Part shown: piece by piece, positions 765-47,544 of the stretch
Layout: each line of letters begins with the position of its first letter
How positions within the stretch are numbered: position 1 is the stretch's first letter
Assembly: GCA_043758065.1 (NCBI GenBank)
Contig: JAYVOE010000079.1
Coordinates: 1 to 57,042, forward strand
Direction: 5' to 3'
DNA: 57,042 nt
Source: Spartobacteria bacterium
GTDB lineage: Bacteria; Verrucomicrobiota; Verrucomicrobiia; Chthoniobacterales; DASVRZ01
Notes under the pieces: model-generated
What the model was told of the DNA's origin: nothing
The model's input: only the letters and a program-made list of their open reading frames with translations
The model's database searches: none
Made by a program: the position numbers and the translations under genes

Positions 765-780
765 GCGGACCAGAGTGAAG

Positions 781-885
781 GGCAACGCAGTTGCCGTGAC
801 AAGTGCGTTCCCAAACACAGTTTGGGAACGAGGGCACGCAGTTGCCGTGACAAGTGCGTTCCCAAACACAGTTTGGGAACGAGGG
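781..885. repeat. REP family A tandem pair upstream of RAYT
   Basis: Two ~51-bp units (GCAGTTGCCGTGACAAGTGCGTTCCCAAACACAGTTTGGGAACGAGGG), inverted relative to the 162-215 copy. Confidence 0.92.
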
Positions 886-25662: not shown

Positions 25663-26712
25663 CTAAAAAAGACGGTGGAGTTGCATCGCTATCTCCGCCA
25701 ACGCGAGCGCGGCGGGGTTTTGCGGTTCGCTCAGGACAATCGGCTGTCCGCGGTCGCCGCTTTCCCGAGTCGAAATATCGATCGGCACCTCGCCGAGAAA
25801 TGGCACGCCGAGCCGAGTCGCCTCGCGCCGACCGCCGCCCGTGCCAAAGATGTCGTAACGTTTCCCATCGGACGGTGACTCGAAGAAGCTCATGTTCTCC
25901 ACGAGGCCGAGAATGGGGACGTTCACCTTTTGAAACATCGTCGCCGCCTTGCGCGCATCGATCAGCGCGACCTCCTGCGGCGTGGTCACGATCACCGCGC
26001 CAGCGAGCGCGACCGTCTGCACGATGGTGAGTTGAATATCGCCCGTGCCCGGCGGCAGATCGAGAATCAGGAAATCCAGCTCGCCCCATTCCACCTGACG
26101 CAGAAACTGCTGCGTGTAACGCGTCACCATCGGCCCGCGCAGGATCGCCGGGGAATCGTCATCCAGGAGGAAACTCATCGACATCAATTTGATCCCATAA
26201 CGCTCCAGCGGGATGATCTGGTTTTCATCCGTCGCCGCAGGCCGTTCGCGCGCGCCAAACATCACACCCAGACTCGGCCCATACATATCGCAGTCGCACA
26301 GGCCGACGCTCGCGCCTTGTAACGAGAGCGCGGCGGCCAGATTTGAGGCCACCGTCGATTTTCCCACGCCGCCCTTGCCCGACGCCACCGCAATCACGTG
26401 CCGGATGCCCGGAATCGCCGTTGTTCCCGTCGCGCTCGCACTCGGCGGTGCCGAAATATCGATCACGACCTGCACTTTTCCCATGCCGGGGAGCGATTTC
26501 AGCGCGGCTTCGGTGTCGGTTTTGATCTTCTGCGGAATGGCGGCTTCATTGGTGGCGAGCGCCATTTTCACCGTCACATCCTTGCCGTCCAACGTGACTT
26601 CCCGAAGAATTCCAAACGAAACTATGTCGCGCGAGAAGCCGGGATATTTAACAGTTTTCAGTTGAGTGCGAATCGACTCTTCGGTGGGCGGCGTTGAGGA
26701 AAAAAAAGACAT
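25663..26712 (-). CDS. mrp: Mrp/NBP35 (ApbC) Fe-S cluster carrier ATPase
   Basis: N-terminal DUF59-like domain, SGKGGVGKST, LRGPM, DLPPGTGD, VTTPQ, ENMS; likely ATG at 26712. Confidence 0.93.
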   Translation of the reverse strand: MSFFSSTPPTEESIRTQLKTVKYPGFSRDIVSFGILREVTLDGKDVTVKMALATNEAAIPQKIKTDTEAALKSLPGMGKVQVVIDISAPPSASATGTTAIPGIRHVIAVASGKGGVGKSTVASNLAAALSLQGASVGLCDCDMYGPSLGVMFGARERPAATDENQIIPLERYGIKLMSMSFLLDDDSPAILRGPMVTRYTQQFLRQVEWGELDFLILDLPPGTGDIQLTIVQTVALAGAVIVTTPQEVALIDARKAATMFQKVNVPILGLVENMSFFESPSDGKRYDIFGTGGGRREATRLGVPFLGEVPIDISTRESGDRGQPIVLSEPQNPAALALAEIAMQLHRLF

Positions 26713-26796
26713 GGGAGTTAAAGAGAAATGGGGCACCACTAATGAACCGGAAACGTCCCGAATCAAAGCAGGATCTCAGCAAAAGCCATTCGTCTT

Positions 26797-26870
26797 CTGA
26801 AAATAGCCCAGCGCTTCAGCACTGGGATGAAAAAGGGCAGCAATCCACTTAGTCCGCAGGGACGACAGAA
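26797..26870. repeat. REP family B half element
   Basis: CTGAAAATAGCCCAGCGCTTCAGCACTGGG plus GTCCGCAGGGACGACAG; matches 44572-44645. Confidence 0.8.
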
Positions 26871-26892
26871 CTCCAAGTCGTTGCAAGCCAAC

Positions 26893-27136
26893 CTCCGGCT
26901 GAGTGCGTCACACTCCCCAAGCGCCTCCGCTCTGGTCTCCGGGTCGCGCCATAACGCCTCCGGAATTTTCCATACGACTTCCAACGGACTGCGACCCAGC
27001 CTCCGGATGATTCCCACATGGCCTCCGGGTCGATTCCTGCGCGTCTCCGGGTGCATCCCACCGACCTCCGGTGAGTGCAAGTCGGTCTCCGGGTAGGTGC
27101 AAGTCGGTTTCCGGAAAGGTGCAAGTTCACCTCCCG
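26893..27136. repeat. degenerate 21/22-nt periodic array (CTCCGG core)
   Basis: (C/T)TCC cores at 26937, 26958, 26979, 27001, 27023, 27045, 27066, 27087, 27109, 27131. Confidence 0.8.
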
Positions 27137-27292
27137 GCATGGCAAACACCGCAAAACAGCCCGGTTTCCGCCCAAAAACCGCGTTTTTCTGTTAAAACAG
27201 CCCCAAAACAGTGATTTCCCAGCATTGAAGCTTGTCAGCAGACATCGGCTCCGGCATTCTTCTCCTGCCCATTCCCAACCAACTCAATTATT

Positions 27293-28009
27293 ATGAACGA
27301 CCGCGATATCCTCCGTGAAGACCGACTCACCCGCACCCAAACCTTCGGCCGCGCAAACGCTGCCGACTTCGTCGCTGGCAGCAAAGCCCCGGCGCTTTTC
27401 GCCAACATCACCCAAATCCTCCTCGACCTCGCCGCCGCCAAGATCGGCCAGGTCCCCGGACGCGCCTCCAAGGCCGCCTTGCTCGACGCTCTCTGGCTTG
27501 ACTACAAAAACATCGCCCGCACCTCACGCAGCATCGGGGCAGCAGCCCTCGGCGGCTCCATCGTGGATTACGCCGTTCCCGCAGATTTCACTGAAGCTCT
27601 GATCAAAATTCAGGCCGAAAAACTCCTCAGCCTCCTCGAAGACAACATCGCGCCGGTCGGCGGCGACACCCCCGAGCAACTCGCCGCCAAAGCCGCCCGC
27701 TGCGCATTGTTTCTCGAATGGGAAATCCAGGCCGACTTCGTCGAAGACCTCCGCTCCGATTACGACGCCCTCATCGCCGCCAACCAGCTCAACCAGGCAG
27801 AAAATCAGGACGGCGTGGAAAACACCGCCGCCATCGGCGTCCTCCTCCTCAGCGGCGGACAAACCGTGTCCGACCTCGACACCATCATGCAGAACAAATA
27901 CGCTAGGCAGCCCGAAAAACTCCGCGCCTGGGAAAGCGCCAGCCGAGTATACCGCAGCCCGGTTCGGAAAAAGGATGTTCCAACAGTAGGGACTCCTCTG
28001 CGAACTTAA
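27293..28009 (+). CDS. uncharacterised alpha-helical protein next to the repeat array
   Basis: 238-aa ORF with host-like codon bias; amphipathic helices; C-terminal LDTIMQNKY..PEKLRAWESASRV. Confidence 0.82.
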   Translation: MNDRDILREDRLTRTQTFGRANAADFVAGSKAPALFANITQILLDLAAAKIGQVPGRASKAALLDALWLDYKNIARTSRSIGAAALGGSIVDYAVPADFTEALIKIQAEKLLSLLEDNIAPVGGDTPEQLAAKAARCALFLEWEIQADFVEDLRSDYDALIAANQLNQAENQDGVENTAAIGVLLLSGGQTVSDLDTIMQNKYARQPEKLRAWESASRVYRSPVRKKDVPTVGTPLRT

Positions 28010-28139
28010 GGGCGTCGCGATCCTTTCTTAGTTAAACATTTATCCTTAGACCATATAGGAACTGCTTCGGATATAGATCCATGATCTAGTTTTATTTAGG
28101 GTCTTTTGATTGAACGCCGGTGGCATTTGGTCACTCTGA

Positions 28140-28331
28140 ATGTTTGTGAATCAACTTTCAAAAAACAAAAAGCGCTACACGTATGCCGAAAATCTGGATG
28201 CCTATGAGGCGCTCAAAAGGATTGCCGCAAGAGAGCGACTCGATATGGCGGATATAGTGAGGCGTGCCACCCGGAATTTCGTCGAAAATTACCGATGCCA
28301 TCCCCGCCACAACCTATCTTCGTCTGAGTGA
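28140..28331 (+). CDS. small putative ribbon-helix-helix/CopG-like DNA-binding protein
   Basis: KRYTY..YEALKRIAARERLDMADIVRRATRNFV pattern. Confidence 0.55.
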   Translation: MFVNQLSKNKKRYTYAENLDAYEALKRIAARERLDMADIVRRATRNFVENYRCHPRHNLSSSE

Positions 28332-28414
28332 CACCGGTTATTGCAATAACGCTGGTTCTAGAAATCTGATTTTAACTCGTTTCTAACAGAACAGACAATC
28401 CGCCGCTTATCAGT

Positions 28415-29242
28415 TCAATATCCAAAGGTTTTAAGGCGTAATGCCTCGGCTTTTGCTTGTTGTGCATCCCTCGAAGCAGAGTCCGCTTCCGCTCGAGCAG
28501 CGTCCACTTCCCGCTTTAGCTTATTAAGAGGGTCGTTATATTCCTCCTCTCGTTTGAGACGGCGCTGCTTAACCTTGTTCGCGTGTGTATTATTTAGCTC
28601 TCTTAAAAGTGTTATCAAATTAGGTGTGAATCCTCCGGTTGATAATGATTCGAAGGTTTGGTCTGAATCAACCTCCGAGCCATGGCTTATCTTCGCATCA
28701 TTGATTGCCGTGCCGGCAACTCTCCGATTGAGAGCCTCCTCTCGTGCTACTAAGTCCCTTTCCCTTTTGTCTAAAGCTATTTTATCTGCAGCAACTTTCT
28801 CTACTCGAGCTTTCGTTTCGAGGGCTTTCGTATTTTGCCGCTCCTTCTCACAGTCTACCATGAACTGCCGAGCGAATGCTTTGGACCGCTGGTCTTCCTT
28901 CTCCCATTCTTCTTTATAGGTTTCGAAGGCCTTGCGTGCCGCGTATTCTGGCGTGTCCCTCGCAAGAACGGTATCGTAATGATATTTTTTTTGAAGAGCA
29001 TCTGGTAGATCTTCGAAGGGAATCAAATCTTCTCCCCAGTTATGCACAACAAACAAACCTGTAGGTGTCACCTGAGTTACGATCGATTCTCTGTATGTTT
29101 TACCACTTCTTGTAGTGATTGTCTCTTTGGCAAACGCGCTAGAATGCATTAGTGCTAGAAACCAAAAGACGAAGGCTGCGCGCTTTACCCAATTAACGAA
29201 AGACAGCAGATGTGGCGGAGGAACTGTCGGGATCGTATTCAT
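28415..29242 (-). CDS. hypothetical exported coiled-coil protein (AT-rich segment)
   Basis: Signal/TM segment then ITTRSGKTY..IPFEDLPDALQKKY, followed by a charged coiled coil. Confidence 0.65.
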   Translation of the reverse strand: MNTIPTVPPPHLLSFVNWVKRAAFVFWFLALMHSSAFAKETITTRSGKTYRESIVTQVTPTGLFVVHNWGEDLIPFEDLPDALQKKYHYDTVLARDTPEYAARKAFETYKEEWEKEDQRSKAFARQFMVDCEKERQNTKALETKARVEKVAADKIALDKRERDLVAREEALNRRVAGTAINDAKISHGSEVDSDQTFESLSTGGFTPNLITLLRELNNTHANKVKQRRLKREEEYNDPLNKLKREVDAARAEADSASRDAQQAKAEALRLKTFGY

Positions 29243-29337
29243 ATGACGAAGGTAATCAGATTTGCCTAGATTGGAAACGCCAATCCTCAGGCCCCACCTT
29301 TGAATGTTCGCACGACATCCGATCCCATATCTGTTTC

Positions 29338-31308
29338 TCAAGGCAGACGCAGGTCGTAGGTGAGGTGGTTGGGGGCGGAGCGGCGGCATTCATGGCCGGG
29401 TTTGGAGATGGATTTTGGGAAGGGGCCGACAAATTTCGACTGGCCGGTTTGCAGTTGGTAGGTGAGCGTTTTCCTGCCTTGCGAGAAAGAAATTTCAAGC
29501 GGCATCTGGGGCAGGATGCCCGGGTGCAGGCTGGGGTAAAGCGCCGTTTTGCGGAAGCGCAGTCCGGCTCCGTGCAGATTCGCGGGGAAACTTTCCAGCG
29601 GCAGTGATCGCCCTTGCACTCGGATGGAAATTGGCACGTCGGTGGTGATCTCCAGCCGCTCGATGCTAGTATCGACGAAGCGCGAGGTGCTGCCGCCTTC
29701 CAGCGGTTGCTCGCAAAGGAGTGGCCAGCTTTCCAGCGCTTTGCGGATCGTGATGTTAGCAGAATCGAGCTGCGTTTCTAACAAGACCGGAAACCGCCAT
29801 TCCCAGATGTCGCGGAAAACTTTTGAGGGGAGTTCGATCCCATTCTGAGCTAGAAAACCTAACACTTCTGTAAGGTCGTCCCAGAGAAAGCTTGGTAGAA
29901 AAAAGCGGTCTTGTAATTGCGAACTCAGGTCGCGCAGCGGCTCTGAAAACGGCGATGTTAACAAGACGGCGGCTAGCGCGCGCCAGAGCAACGCGACGGC
30001 CGAAGTCCACTCTGCGCTTGGCAATGTTTCGATGGCGCGAAACTCCAATATTCCATGCGCACCGCCGGGAAAACTCACATTCCAAAACTTGTCGAAACTA
30101 ATCTCGCTGCGATGGGTATTTCCGGAACCATCGATGTGGAGGTGACGCAGCGTTTCGTTGATAATCTGCCGGTGATCTCCGCGGCCGAGCGATTCGAGAT
30201 ATTGATAAGCCATCTCGAGATCGTAGAGGCTGCGGGCGGATTCGTCCGTGCGCGGCGCTTGTGAGCTAGCCCCGACATAAGCGCCGGTGAAGAGATAACT
30301 CAGACTCGGATGATGCTGCCAGAAACGCAGAATGCTAGTGACCCAGCTGGGATGCGTGAAGAAGGCGTTTTCCTCCGTGCTCGGTCCGCCCAGACAGATG
30401 TGATTTCCACCACCCGTGCCTGCTTCCATGTCGCCGCTGATTTTTAGCGAACGCAATCCCGTCGCGGTGCCGCACGTCTCGATCGCTTCCATCCAATCGG
30501 CATATTCCGACCAGGTTTCGCAGGGTGGAATATTGATTTCCAACACTCCGGGATCAGACGCGATTCCTAGCTTGGACCAAGTGTTAGCATCGTCCGATGG
30601 GACGTAGCCTTGAAGCCTAACATTGGAAATTTTCAGTCGAGTTAGAACCGATTCGATGTGCTTCAACAGCTTGAGAAATGGCTCTTGCAGCAGCGGCGGA
30701 AAGAAGATGGCGAGCGCATTCGACTGCAACTCGACTGTTAGTGCGCGGCGGCTCAGTTTTTCTGGCACCAGGTTGAGCGGCAACCGTAACCCAGCGGGCG
30801 CGTCCAGCTGCAGCAACTTCATCGACTTCATCTTCCAATCGGCGGAAACGAATTTCTTCCCGTTGTGATCGAGTGGCAGAATCGCCACGCTGGTGGGTTG
30901 CCCTTTGATCCAGCTGGTTTTTAAATGTAATTCCGCGAGAAGCTCGGCGCAGAATCGTTTGTAACTCGACTGAGAAACGGGTTGATCGGAGAACGGAAGT
31001 TCTAACAGTGGCTCGCTGCTTCTCAGGGTTAGAACATTGAGCACCCAACGCGGATTCACTTCACCCGGATAAGTCTTTCCCGGAGAATAAAACATCACGC
31101 TGCCGGGCGCTTTGGTGCGAATCATTTCATCGGCGAACTCGTAGGCGTAACGCAGCTTCGTCGGGCCGACGGCAGTGATCGACCACTCGGGGCCTTCGGG
31201 ATTGTTAGGAACCAGCGTGGGTTCGCCGCCTTGGGTGAGGCGGACGCGTTTTCGCCTGAGAAGAGTTTCGACTTTTTTGGCCGGAGTTAGAAGCGTATCA
31301 GGGATCAT
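29338..31308 (-). CDS. DUF2126-type putative amidoligase (transglutaminase-associated)
   Basis: LTQGGEPT, PDPGVLE-like SDPGVLEIN, GTGGGNH, HPSLSYLF, GNTHRSEI..DK, EFRA, FVDTSIER. Confidence 0.88.
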   Translation of the reverse strand: MIPDTLLTPAKKVETLLRRKRVRLTQGGEPTLVPNNPEGPEWSITAVGPTKLRYAYEFADEMIRTKAPGSVMFYSPGKTYPGEVNPRWVLNVLTLRSSEPLLELPFSDQPVSQSSYKRFCAELLAELHLKTSWIKGQPTSVAILPLDHNGKKFVSADWKMKSMKLLQLDAPAGLRLPLNLVPEKLSRRALTVELQSNALAIFFPPLLQEPFLKLLKHIESVLTRLKISNVRLQGYVPSDDANTWSKLGIASDPGVLEINIPPCETWSEYADWMEAIETCGTATGLRSLKISGDMEAGTGGGNHICLGGPSTEENAFFTHPSWVTSILRFWQHHPSLSYLFTGAYVGASSQAPRTDESARSLYDLEMAYQYLESLGRGDHRQIINETLRHLHIDGSGNTHRSEISFDKFWNVSFPGGAHGILEFRAIETLPSAEWTSAVALLWRALAAVLLTSPFSEPLRDLSSQLQDRFFLPSFLWDDLTEVLGFLAQNGIELPSKVFRDIWEWRFPVLLETQLDSANITIRKALESWPLLCEQPLEGGSTSRFVDTSIERLEITTDVPISIRVQGRSLPLESFPANLHGAGLRFRKTALYPSLHPGILPQMPLEISFSQGRKTLTYQLQTGQSKFVGPFPKSISKPGHECRRSAPNHLTYDLRLP

Positions 31309-45875: not shown

Positions 45876-46060
45876 CCTCGTTCCCAAACTGTGTTTGGGG
45901 ACGCACCTATCTTCGAAACTCGGTTTCGCGGACGCTCCCCTTGATAGGACAACGCTGGAACCCGATTGAAAAATCCAGGTCAGGTCCCTCACCGCTCCCC
46001 GCCGCCTGCAACCCAGTTGCAGCCACAAGTGCGTTCCCAAACACAGTTTGGGAACGAGGG
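45876..46060. repeat. REP family A inverted doublet (REPIN)
   Basis: REP A at 45876-45906 and 46029-46060; spacer similar to the 44846-45011 element. Confidence 0.9.
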
Positions 46061-46071
46061 GGTCATCCTGC

Positions 46072-46140
46072 CGTCCCTCACGGGACTCCGCACTTTCCCG
46101 TCGCCGAAGCCCCAGCCTTGAAAGGCTGGGCTATTTTCAG
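46072..46140. repeat. REP family B half element
   Basis: CGTCCCTCACGGGACT..CCCAGCCTTGAAAGGCTGGGCTATTTTCAG, motifs identical to those in 44672-44741. Confidence 0.88.
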
Positions 46141-46187
46141 AACACCACCCGCAACCGGAGCGAAGTTACCGGCCTACCAACGTTACC

Positions 46188-46481
46188 CTCCAACTTCCAG
46201 GCGACATCCTCCGGCATCTAGGCGCGGCCCTCCGACGCCCAGGCGGATGTCTTTAGCGGCTAGGCGTGGCTTTCCGGCATCTAGGCGGCACCCGGCGGCA
46301 TCTAGGGGAAGGTCTTCAGCATCCAGGTAACGCTCTCCATCACGTAGGCGTGATCTTTCGGCATTTAGGCGGTGTTCTCAGACCGCCAGGCCGATGTCTC
46401 CAGCGTCTAGGCGGCAGTCTCCAACACATAGGCGGCGGCCTGCGGCGTTTTGAGCGGAGTTCCAAGCGTATCGACGACGGC
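46188..46481. repeat. 21-nt periodic degenerate array (consensus CTCCGGCATCTAGGCGGNNNN)
   Basis: YAGG exactly every 21 nt from 46198 to 46429 (12 units), plus 2 decayed units. Confidence 0.88.
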
Positions 46482-46498
46482 TTTCGGCAGCAAATCCC

Positions 46499-46773
46499 AT
46501 GGCTTCGGCGCAAAATGTTACGGCGTTTCAAGCGCAGGTCGAGAGTCTGCCCGGCCTTCAGCAGAGCGTCGAAGACAAGGAAGCCGCCTTGCGCGATACC
46601 CGCAGCGCGTCCGGCTCCTGTCGGCCACCGTGGATAAAAACAACAAACGCTGGTATGCCGCTTGGGAGGGCGAATTCCCGGTGAACACCCCCGCCAACGA
46701 CGCCCTCTCCCAGATCGACACCGAATCCGGCGGCCAGAATCCACCAGCGCCTCCGACCCCGCCGACGCCGTAG
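46499..46773 (+). pseudogene. frameshifted C-terminal fragment of an uncharacterised helical protein
   Basis: ..FQAQVESLPGLQQSVEDKEAALRDTRSA / frameshift near 46610 / VRLLSATVDKNNKRWYAAWEGEFPVNTPANDALSQIDT..PPTP*. Confidence 0.55.
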
Positions 46774-46973
46774 GCTTACCGGCCTAGACACCGAGAGAAA
46801 AACAGCGTCGAGTTTCAGTCGATTCAGAAAGAAGGGATGGATCGAACATTTTTTTGGAGCGTGGGTTGGCGCTGACGGCTTCGTCGTGAGGGCGAACGAG
46901 GCATTTGCGGACTCGGCGTGGTTATATTTATCCAGAATTGCACGCCGGGCGGCTGGAAATGGATAACAAAAGC

Positions 46974-47246
46974 CGATTCATGGCTGCGGATTCCCGATCA
47001 ACGGCGGATAAATGGCGATGAAGGGCTGCGGGAGCGCGACGACCGTGTGCGAACTTGCGATGTGGATCTGCGAAGTGCCGATGGGCGTTTGCGCTGAAGC
47101 GAAAAGTGGCGACGGAAAAGCGATGGGTGGCTGCGGAGTGGCGTTGAGCGGCTGCGGATGGACGATGAGCGGCGGCGAACCGGCGATGAGCGGCGGCGAA
47201 TGGACGATGAGCGGCGGCGGAGGAGCGATGAGCGGCGGCGGAGGAA
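46974..47246. repeat. 21-nt periodic degenerate array (consensus CGATGAGCGGCGGCGRANNRR)
   Basis: CGATG-like start exactly every 21 nt from 46974 to 47226 (13 units); right-hand units near-identical. Confidence 0.88.
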
Positions 47247-47342
47247 CAGGAAGTGGCTGCGGTTTCCCAATGGATTCTATGGAAACCACTTATCTCCACT
47301 GATTTTCATTAATCCAGAGGGGAGAGAGGTTCCGGTCTTCTT

Positions 47343-47496
47343 CCTCGTTCCCAAGTTGCACTTGGGAACGCACTGGTCCCGGCAGTTTTACTGCCAAAAG
47401 CTATTCCCTCAATCGGACATCCGTCTAAGTACGGAACGGCCAGCAGCCAAGCTGCCAAAAAGTAAGTGCGTTCCCAAGTGCAACTTGGGAACGAGG
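47343..47496. repeat. REP family A variant inverted doublet
   Basis: CCTCGTTCCCAAG-TTGCA-CTTGGGAACGCAC at 47343 and its inverse at 47466. Confidence 0.9.
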
Positions 47497-47544
47497 AAGA
47501 TGGATCAACGATGGCTGGCTTCCGATTGAGTAAAAAACGGCCAG

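What the first reader, a model, noticed from the sequence alone, without database searches (positions are those of the whole stretch)
26797..28009. REP-B + 21/22-nt periodic array + uncharacterised helical protein: possible array-associated system
Seen: at least 10 units with a fixed CTCCGG core and variable ~15-nt remainder, spaced 21,21,22,22,22,21,21,22,22. The mixed spacing breaks any reading frame, so the array is unlikely to be coding. Gene-proximal units share GTGCAAGTCGGT while distal ones diverge, a polarised pattern. A ~155-nt spacer then leads to an intact 238-aa helical protein of unknown function. A similar layout recurs at 46.1-47.3 kb. Inference: an array RNA, or two-helical-turn-phased binding sites, paired with the protein. 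It is not CRISPR: the core is too short and no cas genes are in the window.
Basis: partly seen in the sequence, partly recalled or inferred. Interest (0 to 1): 0.75.

Follow-up and report, generated by a model that had tools for sequence, protein, structure and literature searches.

The report
Phased repeat array tied to helical-protein gene
A non-coding row of twelve 21/22-base units really does sit in front of an unannotated all-helical protein gene, and the same pairing recurs beside most relatives of that gene in several bacterial phyla, so the two form one undescribed functional unit whose job is still unknown.

Summary
Window 26893-27152 holds 12 units spaced 22,22,21,22,21,22,22,21,21,22,22, with a CTCCGG core. 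The 238-aa ORF at 27293-28009 is confidently all-helical and matches no Pfam, PHROG, NCBIfam, PADLOC or PDB entry.

The pairing is not chance. 26 of 35 usable homologue loci carry a 21/22 (or 42-44) nt periodic array within 900 nt, against 5 of 600 random genome segments. Four of 6 more distant metagenome loci do as well. Unit sequences differ between paralogues, but they keep the period and an oriented GTGC(A/G)A box.

Same-genus genomes have other DNA at this site, with no array and no gene, so array and gene travel together. A near strain differs by exactly one 22-nt unit.

The array has no RNA fold signal and no spacer-like matches. In Accumulibacter it lies downstream of the gene and is inverted.

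Best reading (about 0.45): a double-stranded-DNA platform of sites phased every two helical turns, probably bound by the module's own protein. An array RNA remains possible.

The protein family is large: 2398 clusters at 50% identity. The host genome holds about 60 such periodic regions.

The parts
26788..26826 (-). REP-B: a dispersed hairpin element that looks like a terminator on the minus strand. It is a neighbour of the module, not a constant part of it.
   Evidence: It gives a sub-threshold Acido-Lenti-1 match (28.3 bits against a cut-off of 37). There are 17 such sub-threshold matches in the genome. The terminator-like stem is at 26826-26807 on the minus strand. Contig depth is 245-784 at this spot against 6-19 around it. 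Four of 13 BLAST copies lie within 150 nt of a periodic array.
26893..27152 (+). Non-coding array of 12 units of 21 or 22 nt. Box 1 is CTCCGG at the start of each unit. Box 2, GTGC(A/G)A, is clear in unit 1 and units 9-11.
   Evidence: In a near strain, one 22-nt unit is missing at 27109. The RNA fold z-score is -0.41 on the plus strand and -1.73 on the minus strand.
27162..27181 (.). Weak hairpin followed by a T-run on both strands, lying between the array and the gene.
   Evidence: Terminator-like hits on both strands. A similar A-run/T-run junction element follows the array in several homologue loci; I read this by eye.
27232..27260 (+). Weak candidate sigma-70-type promoter, TTGTCA-N17-CATTCT. 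It is not established.
   Evidence: I read it by eye; it is not called by the scan. TTG(G/C/T)CA-N17 boxes stand at the same relative place in many homologue loci. In L070 a TGGACA-N16-TATAAT site (11 of 12 matches) follows the array directly.
27293..28009 (+). Gene for a 238-aa all-helical protein of an unannotated family, here called family A.
   Evidence: ORF. There are 140 or more homologues and 2398 representative clusters at E<=1e-3. AF2 gives pLDDT 89.3 with seven helices. No Pfam, PHROG, NCBIfam, PADLOC or PDB sequence match.

Best explanation
The array and the 238-aa gene form one heritable, self-contained module. The array acts as double-stranded DNA. It is a row of short recognition boxes: box 1 (here CTCCGG), then 8-9 nt, then box 2 (GTGC(A/G)A). 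The row repeats every 21-22 bp, which is two helical turns, so all the boxes face one side of the helix and can carry a cooperative protein assembly next to the gene's promoter.

The most likely binder is the module's own helical protein, acting in self-control or building a local nucleoprotein structure.

The array evolves by gain and loss of whole units and by point decay outside the boxes.

Shown: the module, its period, its boxes and their orientation, its joint presence or absence, and its unit-number polymorphism.

Inferred: that it works as DNA, that a protein binds it, and which protein.
For: 1. Association. 8 of 9 strong homologues in the genus have an upstream array. Under a uniform test, 26 of 35 loci pass against 5 of 600 random 900-nt segments, and 4 of 6 distant metagenome loci pass. 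In the own genome only two periodic regions have lag 22, and they are the ones beside the two family-A paralogues.

2. No other conserved neighbour exists. In same-genus genomes G002 and G001, the interval between the same flanking genes holds other DNA, no array (maximum 0.35 and 0.42) and no family-A gene.

3. The period is kept while the unit sequence changes. It is 21 in some loci, 22 in others, mixed here, and 42-44 as a super-period elsewhere. This fits helical phasing better than a coding unit or a fixed RNA unit.

4. An oriented shared box. GTGCRA occurs 35 times sense and once antisense in 23 upstream arrays (present in 15 of the 23). That is 0.17 per unit, against 0.02 in the genome's other arrays and 0.012 genome-wide.

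5. The module crossed phyla. Accumulibacter proteins are 45-49% identical, and the arrays there still carry the box (0 sense, 31 antisense), although they lie downstream of the gene. A cis site that works on either side of its gene, as plasmid centromeres do, fits this. Because only the gene travels with the array, a module-encoded binder is the economical reading.

6. There is no RNA structure signal on either strand.

7. In L070 a near-consensus promoter follows the array directly and points at the gene, which places the array upstream of the transcript in that locus.

8. The near strain X4 lacks exactly one 22-nt unit. It shows at least 18 substitutions in 26952-27135 but at most 12 in 27136-27732.
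Against: - The protein is acidic to neutral (pI 5.1-7.0 in seven family members).
- It shows no recognisable DNA-binding fold. Foldseek finds nothing below E 0.3. VIA gives only generic helical bundles, best Z 9.5 with 94-114 residues aligned.
- The gene can exist without an array (L003, L024, L039).
- The own genome has about 60 regions with this period. Roughly 36 are intergenic and show no preference for lying upstream of genes (17 tandem, 10 divergent, 9 convergent). Most are not beside such proteins (based on a crude gene caller). Arrays of this period may therefore arise or persist for a reason unrelated to the adjacent protein.
- For this window's locus the promoter is only a weak guess.
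- The exact GTGCRA hexamer is missing from 8 of the 23 upstream arrays.
- The loci counted are related to each other, so the counts overstate independence.
Confidence: 0.45

Rival explanations
1. The array is transcribed, and the repeat RNA is the partner of the protein. It would be cut into 21-22-nt units, or coated along its length by protein protomers, in the manner of ToxI-ToxN, TIGR-Tas or Vipr-vrRNA.
For: - The layout of repeat array, then weak hairpin with T-run (27162-27181), then gene copies the type III toxin-antitoxin layout (recalled).
- The box has a fixed orientation relative to the gene, 35:1.
- TIGR arrays are reported to lie upstream, downstream or on both sides of tas, and Tas proteins are built on a helical Nop domain with a coiled coil (passages of 10.64898/2026.09.09.750476).
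- Some arrays show a conserved 11-nt part and a variable 10-nt part (L057).
Against: - No fold signal (z -0.41 and -1.73).
- The period floats between 21 and 22 inside one array, which is awkward for a fixed protein-RNA register.
- In several loci the units are 87-93% identical including the 'variable' part (L026, L029, Accumulibacter), so they are not diverse guides.
- The variable parts match nothing in the genome, in phages or in plasmids beyond chance.
- No Nop, ToxN or Cas family hit.
- In L070 the strong promoter lies after the array.
- In Accumulibacter the array would be transcribed antisense to the gene.
Confidence: 0.17
2. The array is an upstream control region read by a host factor or by DNA shape (phased bending, wrapping of RNA polymerase), not by the adjacent protein. 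The protein is simply the regulated cargo.
For: - The array lies just upstream of the likely promoter in Verrucomicrobia-like and Acidobacteria-like loci.
- Many units carry one short A-run per 21-22 bp (L026, L036, L067, L070).
- The protein looks like a scaffold bundle, not a regulator.
- Similar arrays stand beside ordinary genes in this genome.
Against: - Each protein family has its own unit motif, so one global factor does not fit.
- The box survives transfer into a different phylum.
- In Accumulibacter the array is downstream, inverted, and lies between convergent genes.
- This window's own units have no A-tract.
Confidence: 0.2
3. The array is a functionless minisatellite that hitch-hikes with the gene, in a lineage whose replication or repair favours 21-bp tandem duplications.
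For: - Fast turnover and a unit-number difference between near strains.
- About 60 periodic regions in a 2.5-Mb genome, with intergenic ones placed as if at random relative to gene direction.
- DNA similarity between orthologous modules stops at the coding sequence.
Against: - 26 of 35 against 5 of 600.
- The association persists at 37-57% protein identity and in Verrucomicrobiota, Acidobacteriota-like and Accumulibacter records.
- Boxes and their orientation are conserved while the remainder decays.
- The same 21-22 period appears in hosts from different phyla.
Confidence: 0.13

Closest known systems
Plasmid iterons and centromere-like repeat arrays with their cognate binding-protein gene (R6K/RK2 iterons at about 22 bp; R1 parC upstream of parM; F sopC, 12 x 43 bp, downstream of sopB). 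Recalled, not tested here.
   Same: Tandem units at about two helical turns (21-22 bp, with 42-44 bp super-units). A short conserved core within each unit. The array lies beside one particular gene, upstream or downstream. Unit number varies between strains.
   Different: The loci are chromosomal, with several paralogous modules per genome. No replication or partition genes are linked. There were no matches in the plasmid or phage collections with P0028. The protein has no winged-helix, RHH or ParB fold and is not basic.
Type III toxin-antitoxin systems (ToxIN, CptIN, TenpIN). Recalled.
   Same: The order is a tandem direct-repeat array, then a terminator-like hairpin, then a single protein gene. 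The module stands alone.
   Different: Units are 21-22 nt rather than about 36 nt and are often degenerate. No pseudoknot or fold signal. The protein is an all-helical bundle, not a ToxN-type fold. No PADLOC hit. In Accumulibacter the array is downstream and inverted.
TIGR-Tas arrays (36-nt tigRNA units with an 18-nt half-period; Nop-domain Tas proteins). From passages of 10.64898/2026.09.09.750476 and section 2.3 of 10.64898/2026.10.21.760802.
   Same: A short-period array with poorly conserved sequence. Its position around a compact helical protein gene is flexible. Two alternating conserved elements occur per unit or super-unit.
   Different: The period is 21-22 (42-44), not 18/36. The inter-box segments are 3-6 nt, or identical between units. 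No Nop domain appears by Pfam at E<=1, and no Nop or Tas chain is among the fold matches listed. The hosts are free-living Verrucomicrobiota-like, Acidobacteriota-like and Accumulibacter genomes rather than phages.
Bacterial intergenic minisatellites (VNTR loci). Recalled.
   Same: Whole-unit gain and loss between near strains, and rapid sequence turnover.
   Different: The link to one protein family is stable across phyla, and oriented boxes are conserved.

Membership tests
CRISPR-Cas | Repeats of about 23-55 nt separated by unique spacers of similar length. | tested here: not met
   Units are 21-22 nt in all, with a 6-nt core. In several loci the units are 87-93% identical.
CRISPR-Cas | Adjacent cas genes. 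| tested here: not met
   No Pfam or PADLOC hit to Cas families for the 238-aa protein or the two ORFs beside it. No conserved neighbour across 9 loci.
TIGR-Tas | Tas protein built on a Nop domain. | tested here: inconclusive
   No Pfam family at E<=1. No Nop or Tas chain among the listed Foldseek or VIA matches for the family A and family B models. A family that is not listed is not thereby excluded.
TIGR-Tas | 36-nt units with two variable 8-10-nt spacers (18-nt half-period). | tested here: not met
   The period is 21/22, or 42-44. Variable stretches are 3-6 nt between the boxes, or up to 15 nt of decayed sequence here.
Type III toxin-antitoxin (ToxIN-like) | ToxN/AbiQ-type endoribonuclease toxin. 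| tested here: inconclusive
   No Pfam or PADLOC hit. The model has no strands at all, and ToxN is recalled to be a beta-rich fold. Fold lists are not proof of absence.
Type III toxin-antitoxin (ToxIN-like) | Near-identical repeats of about 36 nt that fold as pseudoknots, always upstream of the toxin gene. | tested here: not met
   Units are 21-22 nt. z-scores are -0.41 and -1.73. The array lies downstream in 5 of 35 loci.
Iteron-controlled replicon | An adjacent Rep initiator (winged-helix Rep_3-type) and a plasmid or phage context. | tested here: not met
   No Rep family hit. The model is all-helical. The context is chromosomal, between Mrp/ApbC and a conserved 656-aa gene. No plasmid or phage matches.
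Partition centromere (parC / sopC / parS type) | A linked partition NTPase and a centromere-binding protein (RHH, HTH or ParB). | tested here: not met
   The upstream ParA-like hit is the housekeeping NUBPL/Mrp type with an FeS_assembly_P domain, and it is conserved in 5 of 5 genus relatives irrespective of the module. The weak RHH ORF at 28140-28331 is not a conserved neighbour.
Acido-Lenti-1 RNA motif (for REP-B) | A score at or above Rfam's gathering threshold of 37 bits. | tested here: not met
   28.3 bits here. The best of 17 matches in the genome scores 31.7 bits. It resembles the family but does not qualify as a member.

The most novel reading that the evidence does not exclude
The array is transcribed and supplies a periodic RNA on which the helical protein assembles, one protomer or pair per 21-22 nt. 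This would be a further, previously unseen class of array-plus-effector system alongside CRISPR, TIGR-Tas, VIPR and ToxIN. It would be spread over at least three phyla in a protein family of more than two thousand clusters, with sister families (B, C, D) using their own arrays.
Probability: 0.12. Interest if true: 0.95.

Novelty: new variant of a known kind. Interest (0 to 1): 0.78.

Why it matters
If the pairing is functional, it defines a widespread cis-element/protein module that no catalogue lists. The protein family has 2398 representative clusters at E<=1e-3, and none of the 53 I scanned has a Pfam family.

The module occurs in Verrucomicrobiota-like, Acidobacteriota-like and Accumulibacter genomes. 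At least three further small helical-protein families in this genome show the same arrangement.

It may also explain why this 2.5-Mb genome carries about 60 regions with 21/42-nt periodicity.

A recent large survey of periodic intergenic arrays reports periods of 60-79, 18 and 5 nt, plus a few of 10, 8 and 7. In the section I read it does not mention 21-22 nt, and its method discards some periods that are multiples of three. This class may therefore have been filtered out of systematic screens.

Whichever reading proves right (DNA platform, RNA partner or shape element), a testable molecular function would be assigned to a large block of 'hypothetical proteins' and to a conspicuous class of bacterial repeats.

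Tried and rejected
Sequence-family searches:
- Pfam, PHROGs, NCBIfam, PADLOC and the PDB sequence search gave no family for the 238-aa protein.

Fold searches:
- Foldseek against PDB and BFVD found nothing below E 0.3.
- VIA wide search for models A and B returned only generic helical bundles, best Z 9.5 and 9.0. No Nop, Tas, HTH or recombinase chain was listed.

Other protein look-ups:
- The ESM Atlas returned only unnamed look-alike clusters and a weak DUF6261 lead at 0.88. Pfam did not confirm that lead.
- The homodimer prediction gave no verdict (score 0.05).

Expression data:
- No RNA holder was listed for the stretch, so expression could not be examined.

The array itself:
- It gave no match in phages or plasmids and nothing better than E 0.14 in the own genome.
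- Rfam returned only the sub-threshold REP-B match.

Family A in mobile-element collections:
- P0028 found no relatives in viral contigs, phages or plasmids.

Calls that needed a second attempt:
I used the single protein P0028 instead.
- One script for array boundaries crashed and gave crude limits. Searches replaced it.

Ideas considered and dropped:
- Heptad-repeat coding sequence: a 22-nt period cannot encode a repeat.
- CsrA-type GGA sponge: the motif is absent from most arrays.
- Sigma-54 promoter spacing: it does not fit in this locus.
- A tyrosine recombinase or ECF sigma identity for the protein: no fold support.
- Consistent GC skew of the arrays relative to the gene: it ranges from -0.41 to +0.24.

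Organism names:
- Names for close relatives could not be obtained.
Full report
**What is in the window**

Between the divergently oriented Mrp/ApbC-type gene (25663-26766, minus strand; PF10609 at 6.8e-96) and a 238-aa ORF (27293-28009, plus strand) lie three features.

- A run of 12 units at 26893-27152.
- A 141-156-nt leader.

The units are spaced 22,22,21,22,21,22,22,21,21,22,22. Eight of them begin with exact CTCCGG. CTCCGG-N15-16-CTCCGG is found 5 times in the 57-kb window, all here, against 0.02 expected. Information is concentrated in positions 1-6 of the unit, with a second, weaker patch at positions 12-14. The three gene-proximal units share GTGCAAGT. Tandem Repeats Finder detects only these proximal units (27066-27126, period 22).

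**The protein**

The ORF has no hit in Pfam, PHROGs, NCBIfam, PADLOC or the PDB sequences.

It is nevertheless a member of a large family.

- 2398 representative clusters at E<=1e-3 in the 50%-identity library, of which 1076 are at <=1e-10 and 145 at <=1e-30.
- 53 of those representatives scanned in Pfam gave nothing above noise.

The AF2 model built on 49 sequences is confident (pLDDT 89.3, pTM 0.54) and purely helical. It has seven helices, one of 54 residues. Foldseek against PDB and BFVD returns nothing below E 0.3. VIA returns generic helical bundles, best Z 9.5 with 94-114 residues aligned, which the tool's own guidance treats as uninformative for helical proteins.

The protein is acidic to neutral, pI 5.1-7.0 in seven members, with mildly basic ends. 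The first five residues (MNDRD) and several Arg, Lys, Tyr and Trp positions are invariant or nearly so.

**The array follows the gene**

- *Genus relatives.* In 41 related genomes the protein was found in 5, including the window's own genome. There were 9 strong places and one weak partial hit, L005, which I dropped. Eight of the 9 have an array with period 21, 22, 42 or 43 ending 54-270 nt before the start codon. L003 has none, although its leader is homologous to that of L007.
- *Genome collection.* A scan of the species-level collection with P0028 gave 29 loci. They come from records named Chthoniobacter, Chthoniobacterales, Luteolibacter, Prosthecobacter, Akkermansiaceae, Limisphaerales, Oleiharenicola and, unexpectedly, Accumulibacter.
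- *Phylum sample.* A sample of 401 genomes gave matches in only 4, including G000, so the family is patchy. That search added 4 new full-length loci.
- *Uniform test.* I asked for identity of at least 0.50 at lag 21, 22, 42, 43 or 44 in a 168-nt window within 900 nt of the gene. 26 of 35 loci pass: 21 upstream and 5 downstream. 28 of 35 reach 0.48.
- *Rows dropped before this count.* These were L005; the seven partial matches L037, L038, L040, L042, L045, L046 and L047; the fragments L059 and L063; and the duplicates L056 and L060.
- *Non-passers.* These are L003, L019 (0.48), L020 (0.42), L023 (0.49), L024, L031, L032, L039 and L043 (0.43). L031 and L032 have only 349 and 210 nt of upstream DNA.
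- *Control.* Of 600 random 900-nt segments of the own genome, 5 pass, and the 95th percentile is 0.42.
- *Distant branch.* A branch represented by P0223, whose cluster carries a Pyrinomonadaceae name, was fetched from metagenome contigs. Of 6 loci with at least 575 nt of upstream DNA, 4 pass and a fifth reaches 0.49.

The loci are related to each other, so these counts are not independent trials. The contrast with the control is nevertheless very large.

**Array and gene come and go together**

No protein-coding neighbour is shared among the genus loci. The weak RHH ORF at 28140-28331 is therefore not part of the module.

All five same-genus genomes have the Mrp gene and the 656-aa gene that flank the locus here. 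In G002 and G001 these two genes lie on one contig, and the interval between them contains unrelated DNA. There is no periodic array (maximum 0.35 and 0.42) and no family-A gene. Similarity to the window stops at about 26686 on one side and 29338 on the other.

The 72%-identical orthologue in G005 sits in a different neighbourhood. It shares nucleotide similarity with the window only across the coding sequence. Yet its array units resemble those here.

**Anatomy shared by the arrays**

Unit sequences differ widely between paralogues, but the plan is common. A 5-6-nt box 1 (TCCGG, TCTGG, GCCGG, CCAAA and others) is followed, 8-9 nt from its start, by a box 2 of the type GTGC(A/G)A, with variants GTGTCA, GTGACA and GTGCGC.

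The exact hexamer GTGCRA occurs 35 times on the gene's sense strand and once on the antisense strand in 23 upstream arrays. It is present in 15 of them. That is 0.17 per unit, against 0.02 in the genome's 58 other periodic regions and 0.012 genome-wide.

The two boxes are about one helical turn apart and the unit spans two turns, so all boxes would lie on roughly one face of B-DNA. This is an inference from geometry.

The period is 22 in some lineages, 21 in others, mixed in this window, and appears as 42-44-nt super-units where two unit types alternate.

**The Accumulibacter arrangement**

In four Accumulibacter loci the gene has its own promoter-like TTGCCA-N17-TAATTT box and no upstream array; I read this by eye. 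A very regular 21-nt array (0.88-0.93) lies about 150-380 nt past the stop codon by the windows, beyond a hairpin in L028. In L028 it lies between convergent genes; the far gene is of the Uma2 type.

There the box is on the opposite strand: 0 sense and 31 antisense. The array is therefore inverted as well as moved. Neighbouring genes differ between these loci and include an IS91-type transposase in L028 and a Mut7-C RNase in L034.

A site that functions on either side of its gene argues against a simple 5'-leader role. Retention of the box at 45-49% protein identity in another phylum argues that whatever reads the box travels with the module.

**DNA or RNA**

- The array has no thermodynamic fold signal on either strand (z -0.41 and -1.73).
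- A weak hairpin with T-runs on both strands follows it at 27162-27181.
- For this locus I can offer only a weak promoter guess, TTGTCA-N17-CATTCT at 27232-27260, which the scan did not call.
- In L070 a TGGACA-N16-TATAAT site (11 of 12) follows the array directly and precedes the ATG by 168 nt. L067 has a TATAAT at the same relative place, read by eye and not called. L075 gave no call in its upstream region.
- No RNA run holds the stretch, so transcription is untested.
- Variable parts of the units match nothing elsewhere. In several loci the units are almost identical throughout. A guide-array reading is therefore unlikely.

**Turnover**

In one public run (X4), a contig about 95% identical spans 26655-27732. 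It lacks exactly 22 nt at 27109, which is one proximal unit. It shows at least 18 substitutions in 26952-27135. At most 12 of its 50 differences can lie in 27136-27732. One substitution destroys a CTCCGG core (27002) and one creates a core (27135).

The array thus changes by whole units and by rapid point change, faster than the leader and the gene.

**Wider context in this genome**

A uniform scan finds 60 regions with this periodicity in 2.5 Mb. With my crude codon-usage gene caller (2221 genes, 85% coding), they divide as follows.

| Placement | Regions |
|---|---|
| In called genes | 19 |
| Between tandem genes | 17 |
| Between divergent genes | 10 |
| Between convergent genes | 9 |
| At contig ends | 5 |

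Among the 19 in called genes, some are genuine protein repeats, such as the 42-nt repeats in a 1331-aa ORF on C93. Several others are weak calls made of the repeat itself. The intergenic proportions are close to those expected without any orientation preference.

Only two regions have lag 22, and they are the two beside the two family-A paralogues.

Other arrays precede further unannotated proteins.

- *Family B* (237-246 aa): C78:38699-39412, C82:31792-32511 and C51:2035-2775.
- *Family C* (about 255-275 aa): C20:479-1246 and C124:10566-11393.
- *Family D* (47-61 aa): window 46630-46773 and C136.

Family B is also predicted all-helical. Its confidence dips at the same places as in family A. 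Several of the generic fold hits are shared. Profile comparison aligns the C-terminal 82 columns colinearly, but weakly (E 0.01, probability 4%). Families A, B and D all end in a Pro/Thr-rich tail after an 'AW/AY...R-V/I' helix. A common origin is plausible but not shown.

**REP-B**

REP-B resembles the Rfam Acido-Lenti-1 motif but stays under the threshold (28.3 against 37 bits). The genome has 17 such matches, best 31.7 bits. It is very abundant in the metagenome contigs.

Four of 13 BLAST copies lie within 150 nt of a periodic region, whereas 1.4% of the genome does. Its orientation relative to the array differs between the two loci in the window. I therefore treat it as a frequent neighbour, not as part of the module.

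**Comparison with the literature**

Two full-text searches for such arrays in Verrucomicrobia or for helically phased intergenic repeats listed nothing relevant (listings only).

In the preprint 10.64898/2026.10.21.760802 I read 'find' passages and section 2.3. It surveys periodic intergenic arrays and reports periods of 60-79, 18 and 5 nt, plus 66 other clusters (period 10 A-tracts, and periods 8 and 7). Its methods passage says that some periods that are multiples of three are removed. No 21-22-nt class is mentioned in what I read.

From 10.64898/2026.09.09.750476 I read passages only. TIGR arrays can lie on either side of tas, and Tas proteins are built on a helical Nop domain. This is the closest RNA-level analogue, but the period, the spacer lengths and the lack of any Nop signal do not fit.

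Earlier notes of this scan describe 21-bp and 42-bp phased arrays beside small helical-protein genes and before pheT in other Verrucomicrobia genomes. They agree with what I see, but they are unchecked AI notes and not independent evidence.

**Verdict**

The array, the gene and their linkage are real. The module is undescribed in every source I could search.

My best reading is a helically phased DNA binding platform tied to its own protein (about 0.45). Alternatives are a host-read or shape-based upstream element (0.20), an array RNA (0.17) and a hitch-hiking minisatellite (0.13).

Noticed in passing
window 46111-46540: A REP-B copy is followed by a strictly 21-nt periodic array of about 17 units, with consensus close to TCTCCGGCATCTAGGCGG. 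A homologous REP-B plus array lies at the end of contig C139 (20256-20580).
   Followed up: partly
window 46630-46773 (+); G000:C136 about 6529-6346 (-): A possible small protein family of 47-61 aa, ending in a PPxPPTP tail. Each member lies downstream of a 21-nt array. The C-terminal motif resembles the C-termini of the 238-aa family and of family B.
   Followed up: partly
window 46961-47275: A third array, strict 21-nt period, about 15 units (GGCKGCGGA....CGATGAGC). It overlaps a weakly scoring 96-aa ORF (47012-47302) that may be an artefact of the repeat.
   Followed up: no
window 28140-28331 (+): A 63-aa ORF with sub-threshold ribbon-helix-helix / ORF56 copy-control-like matches (Pfam RHH_1 at 0.0044; NCBIfam NF041793 at 8e-5, under its cut-off). 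It lies in the strain-specific block 26690-29338 and is not conserved beside other family-A genes.
   Followed up: partly
whole genome G000: About 60 regions with 21/42-nt periodicity in 2.5 Mb, most of them intergenic, with many different unit motifs. Examples are CTAATTA on C1 and C139, and palindromic AACGAC...GTCGTT on C101.
   Followed up: partly
G000:C78:38699-39412, C82:31792-32511, C51:2035-2775; C20:479-1246, C124:10566-11393: Two further unannotated protein families of about 240-275 aa. Family B is predicted all-helical. Each gene is preceded by its own 21-nt array. Paralogues B1 and B2 share a TTCGCA(A/C)CGG(A/C)CC-like unit in the same orientation as the gene.
   Followed up: partly
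window 779-885, 46020-46060, 47340-47500: A second dispersed palindromic element (GTTCCCAAACACAGTTTGGGAACG type) occurs repeatedly in the window, sometimes in tandem.
   Followed up: no
G000:C93:50254-50687; C134:7568-8015; C84:9941-10437: Periodic 42- or 21-nt repeats inside long ORFs of 1331, 1178 and 698 aa. These look like genuine coding repeats and should not be pooled with the intergenic arrays.
   Followed up: no
L080 (G002:C38:39500-40900): The interval syntenic to the module in a same-genus genome instead holds small ORFs, one of which reads like a HicB-type antitoxin. The Mrp-flanking interval therefore looks like a variable insertion spot.
   Followed up: no
L028 3808-4075 and other Accumulibacter arrays: Units vary only at four fixed positions, each with two or three alternative bases in different combinations. 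This looks like shuffling between a few unit types rather than random decay.
   Followed up: no
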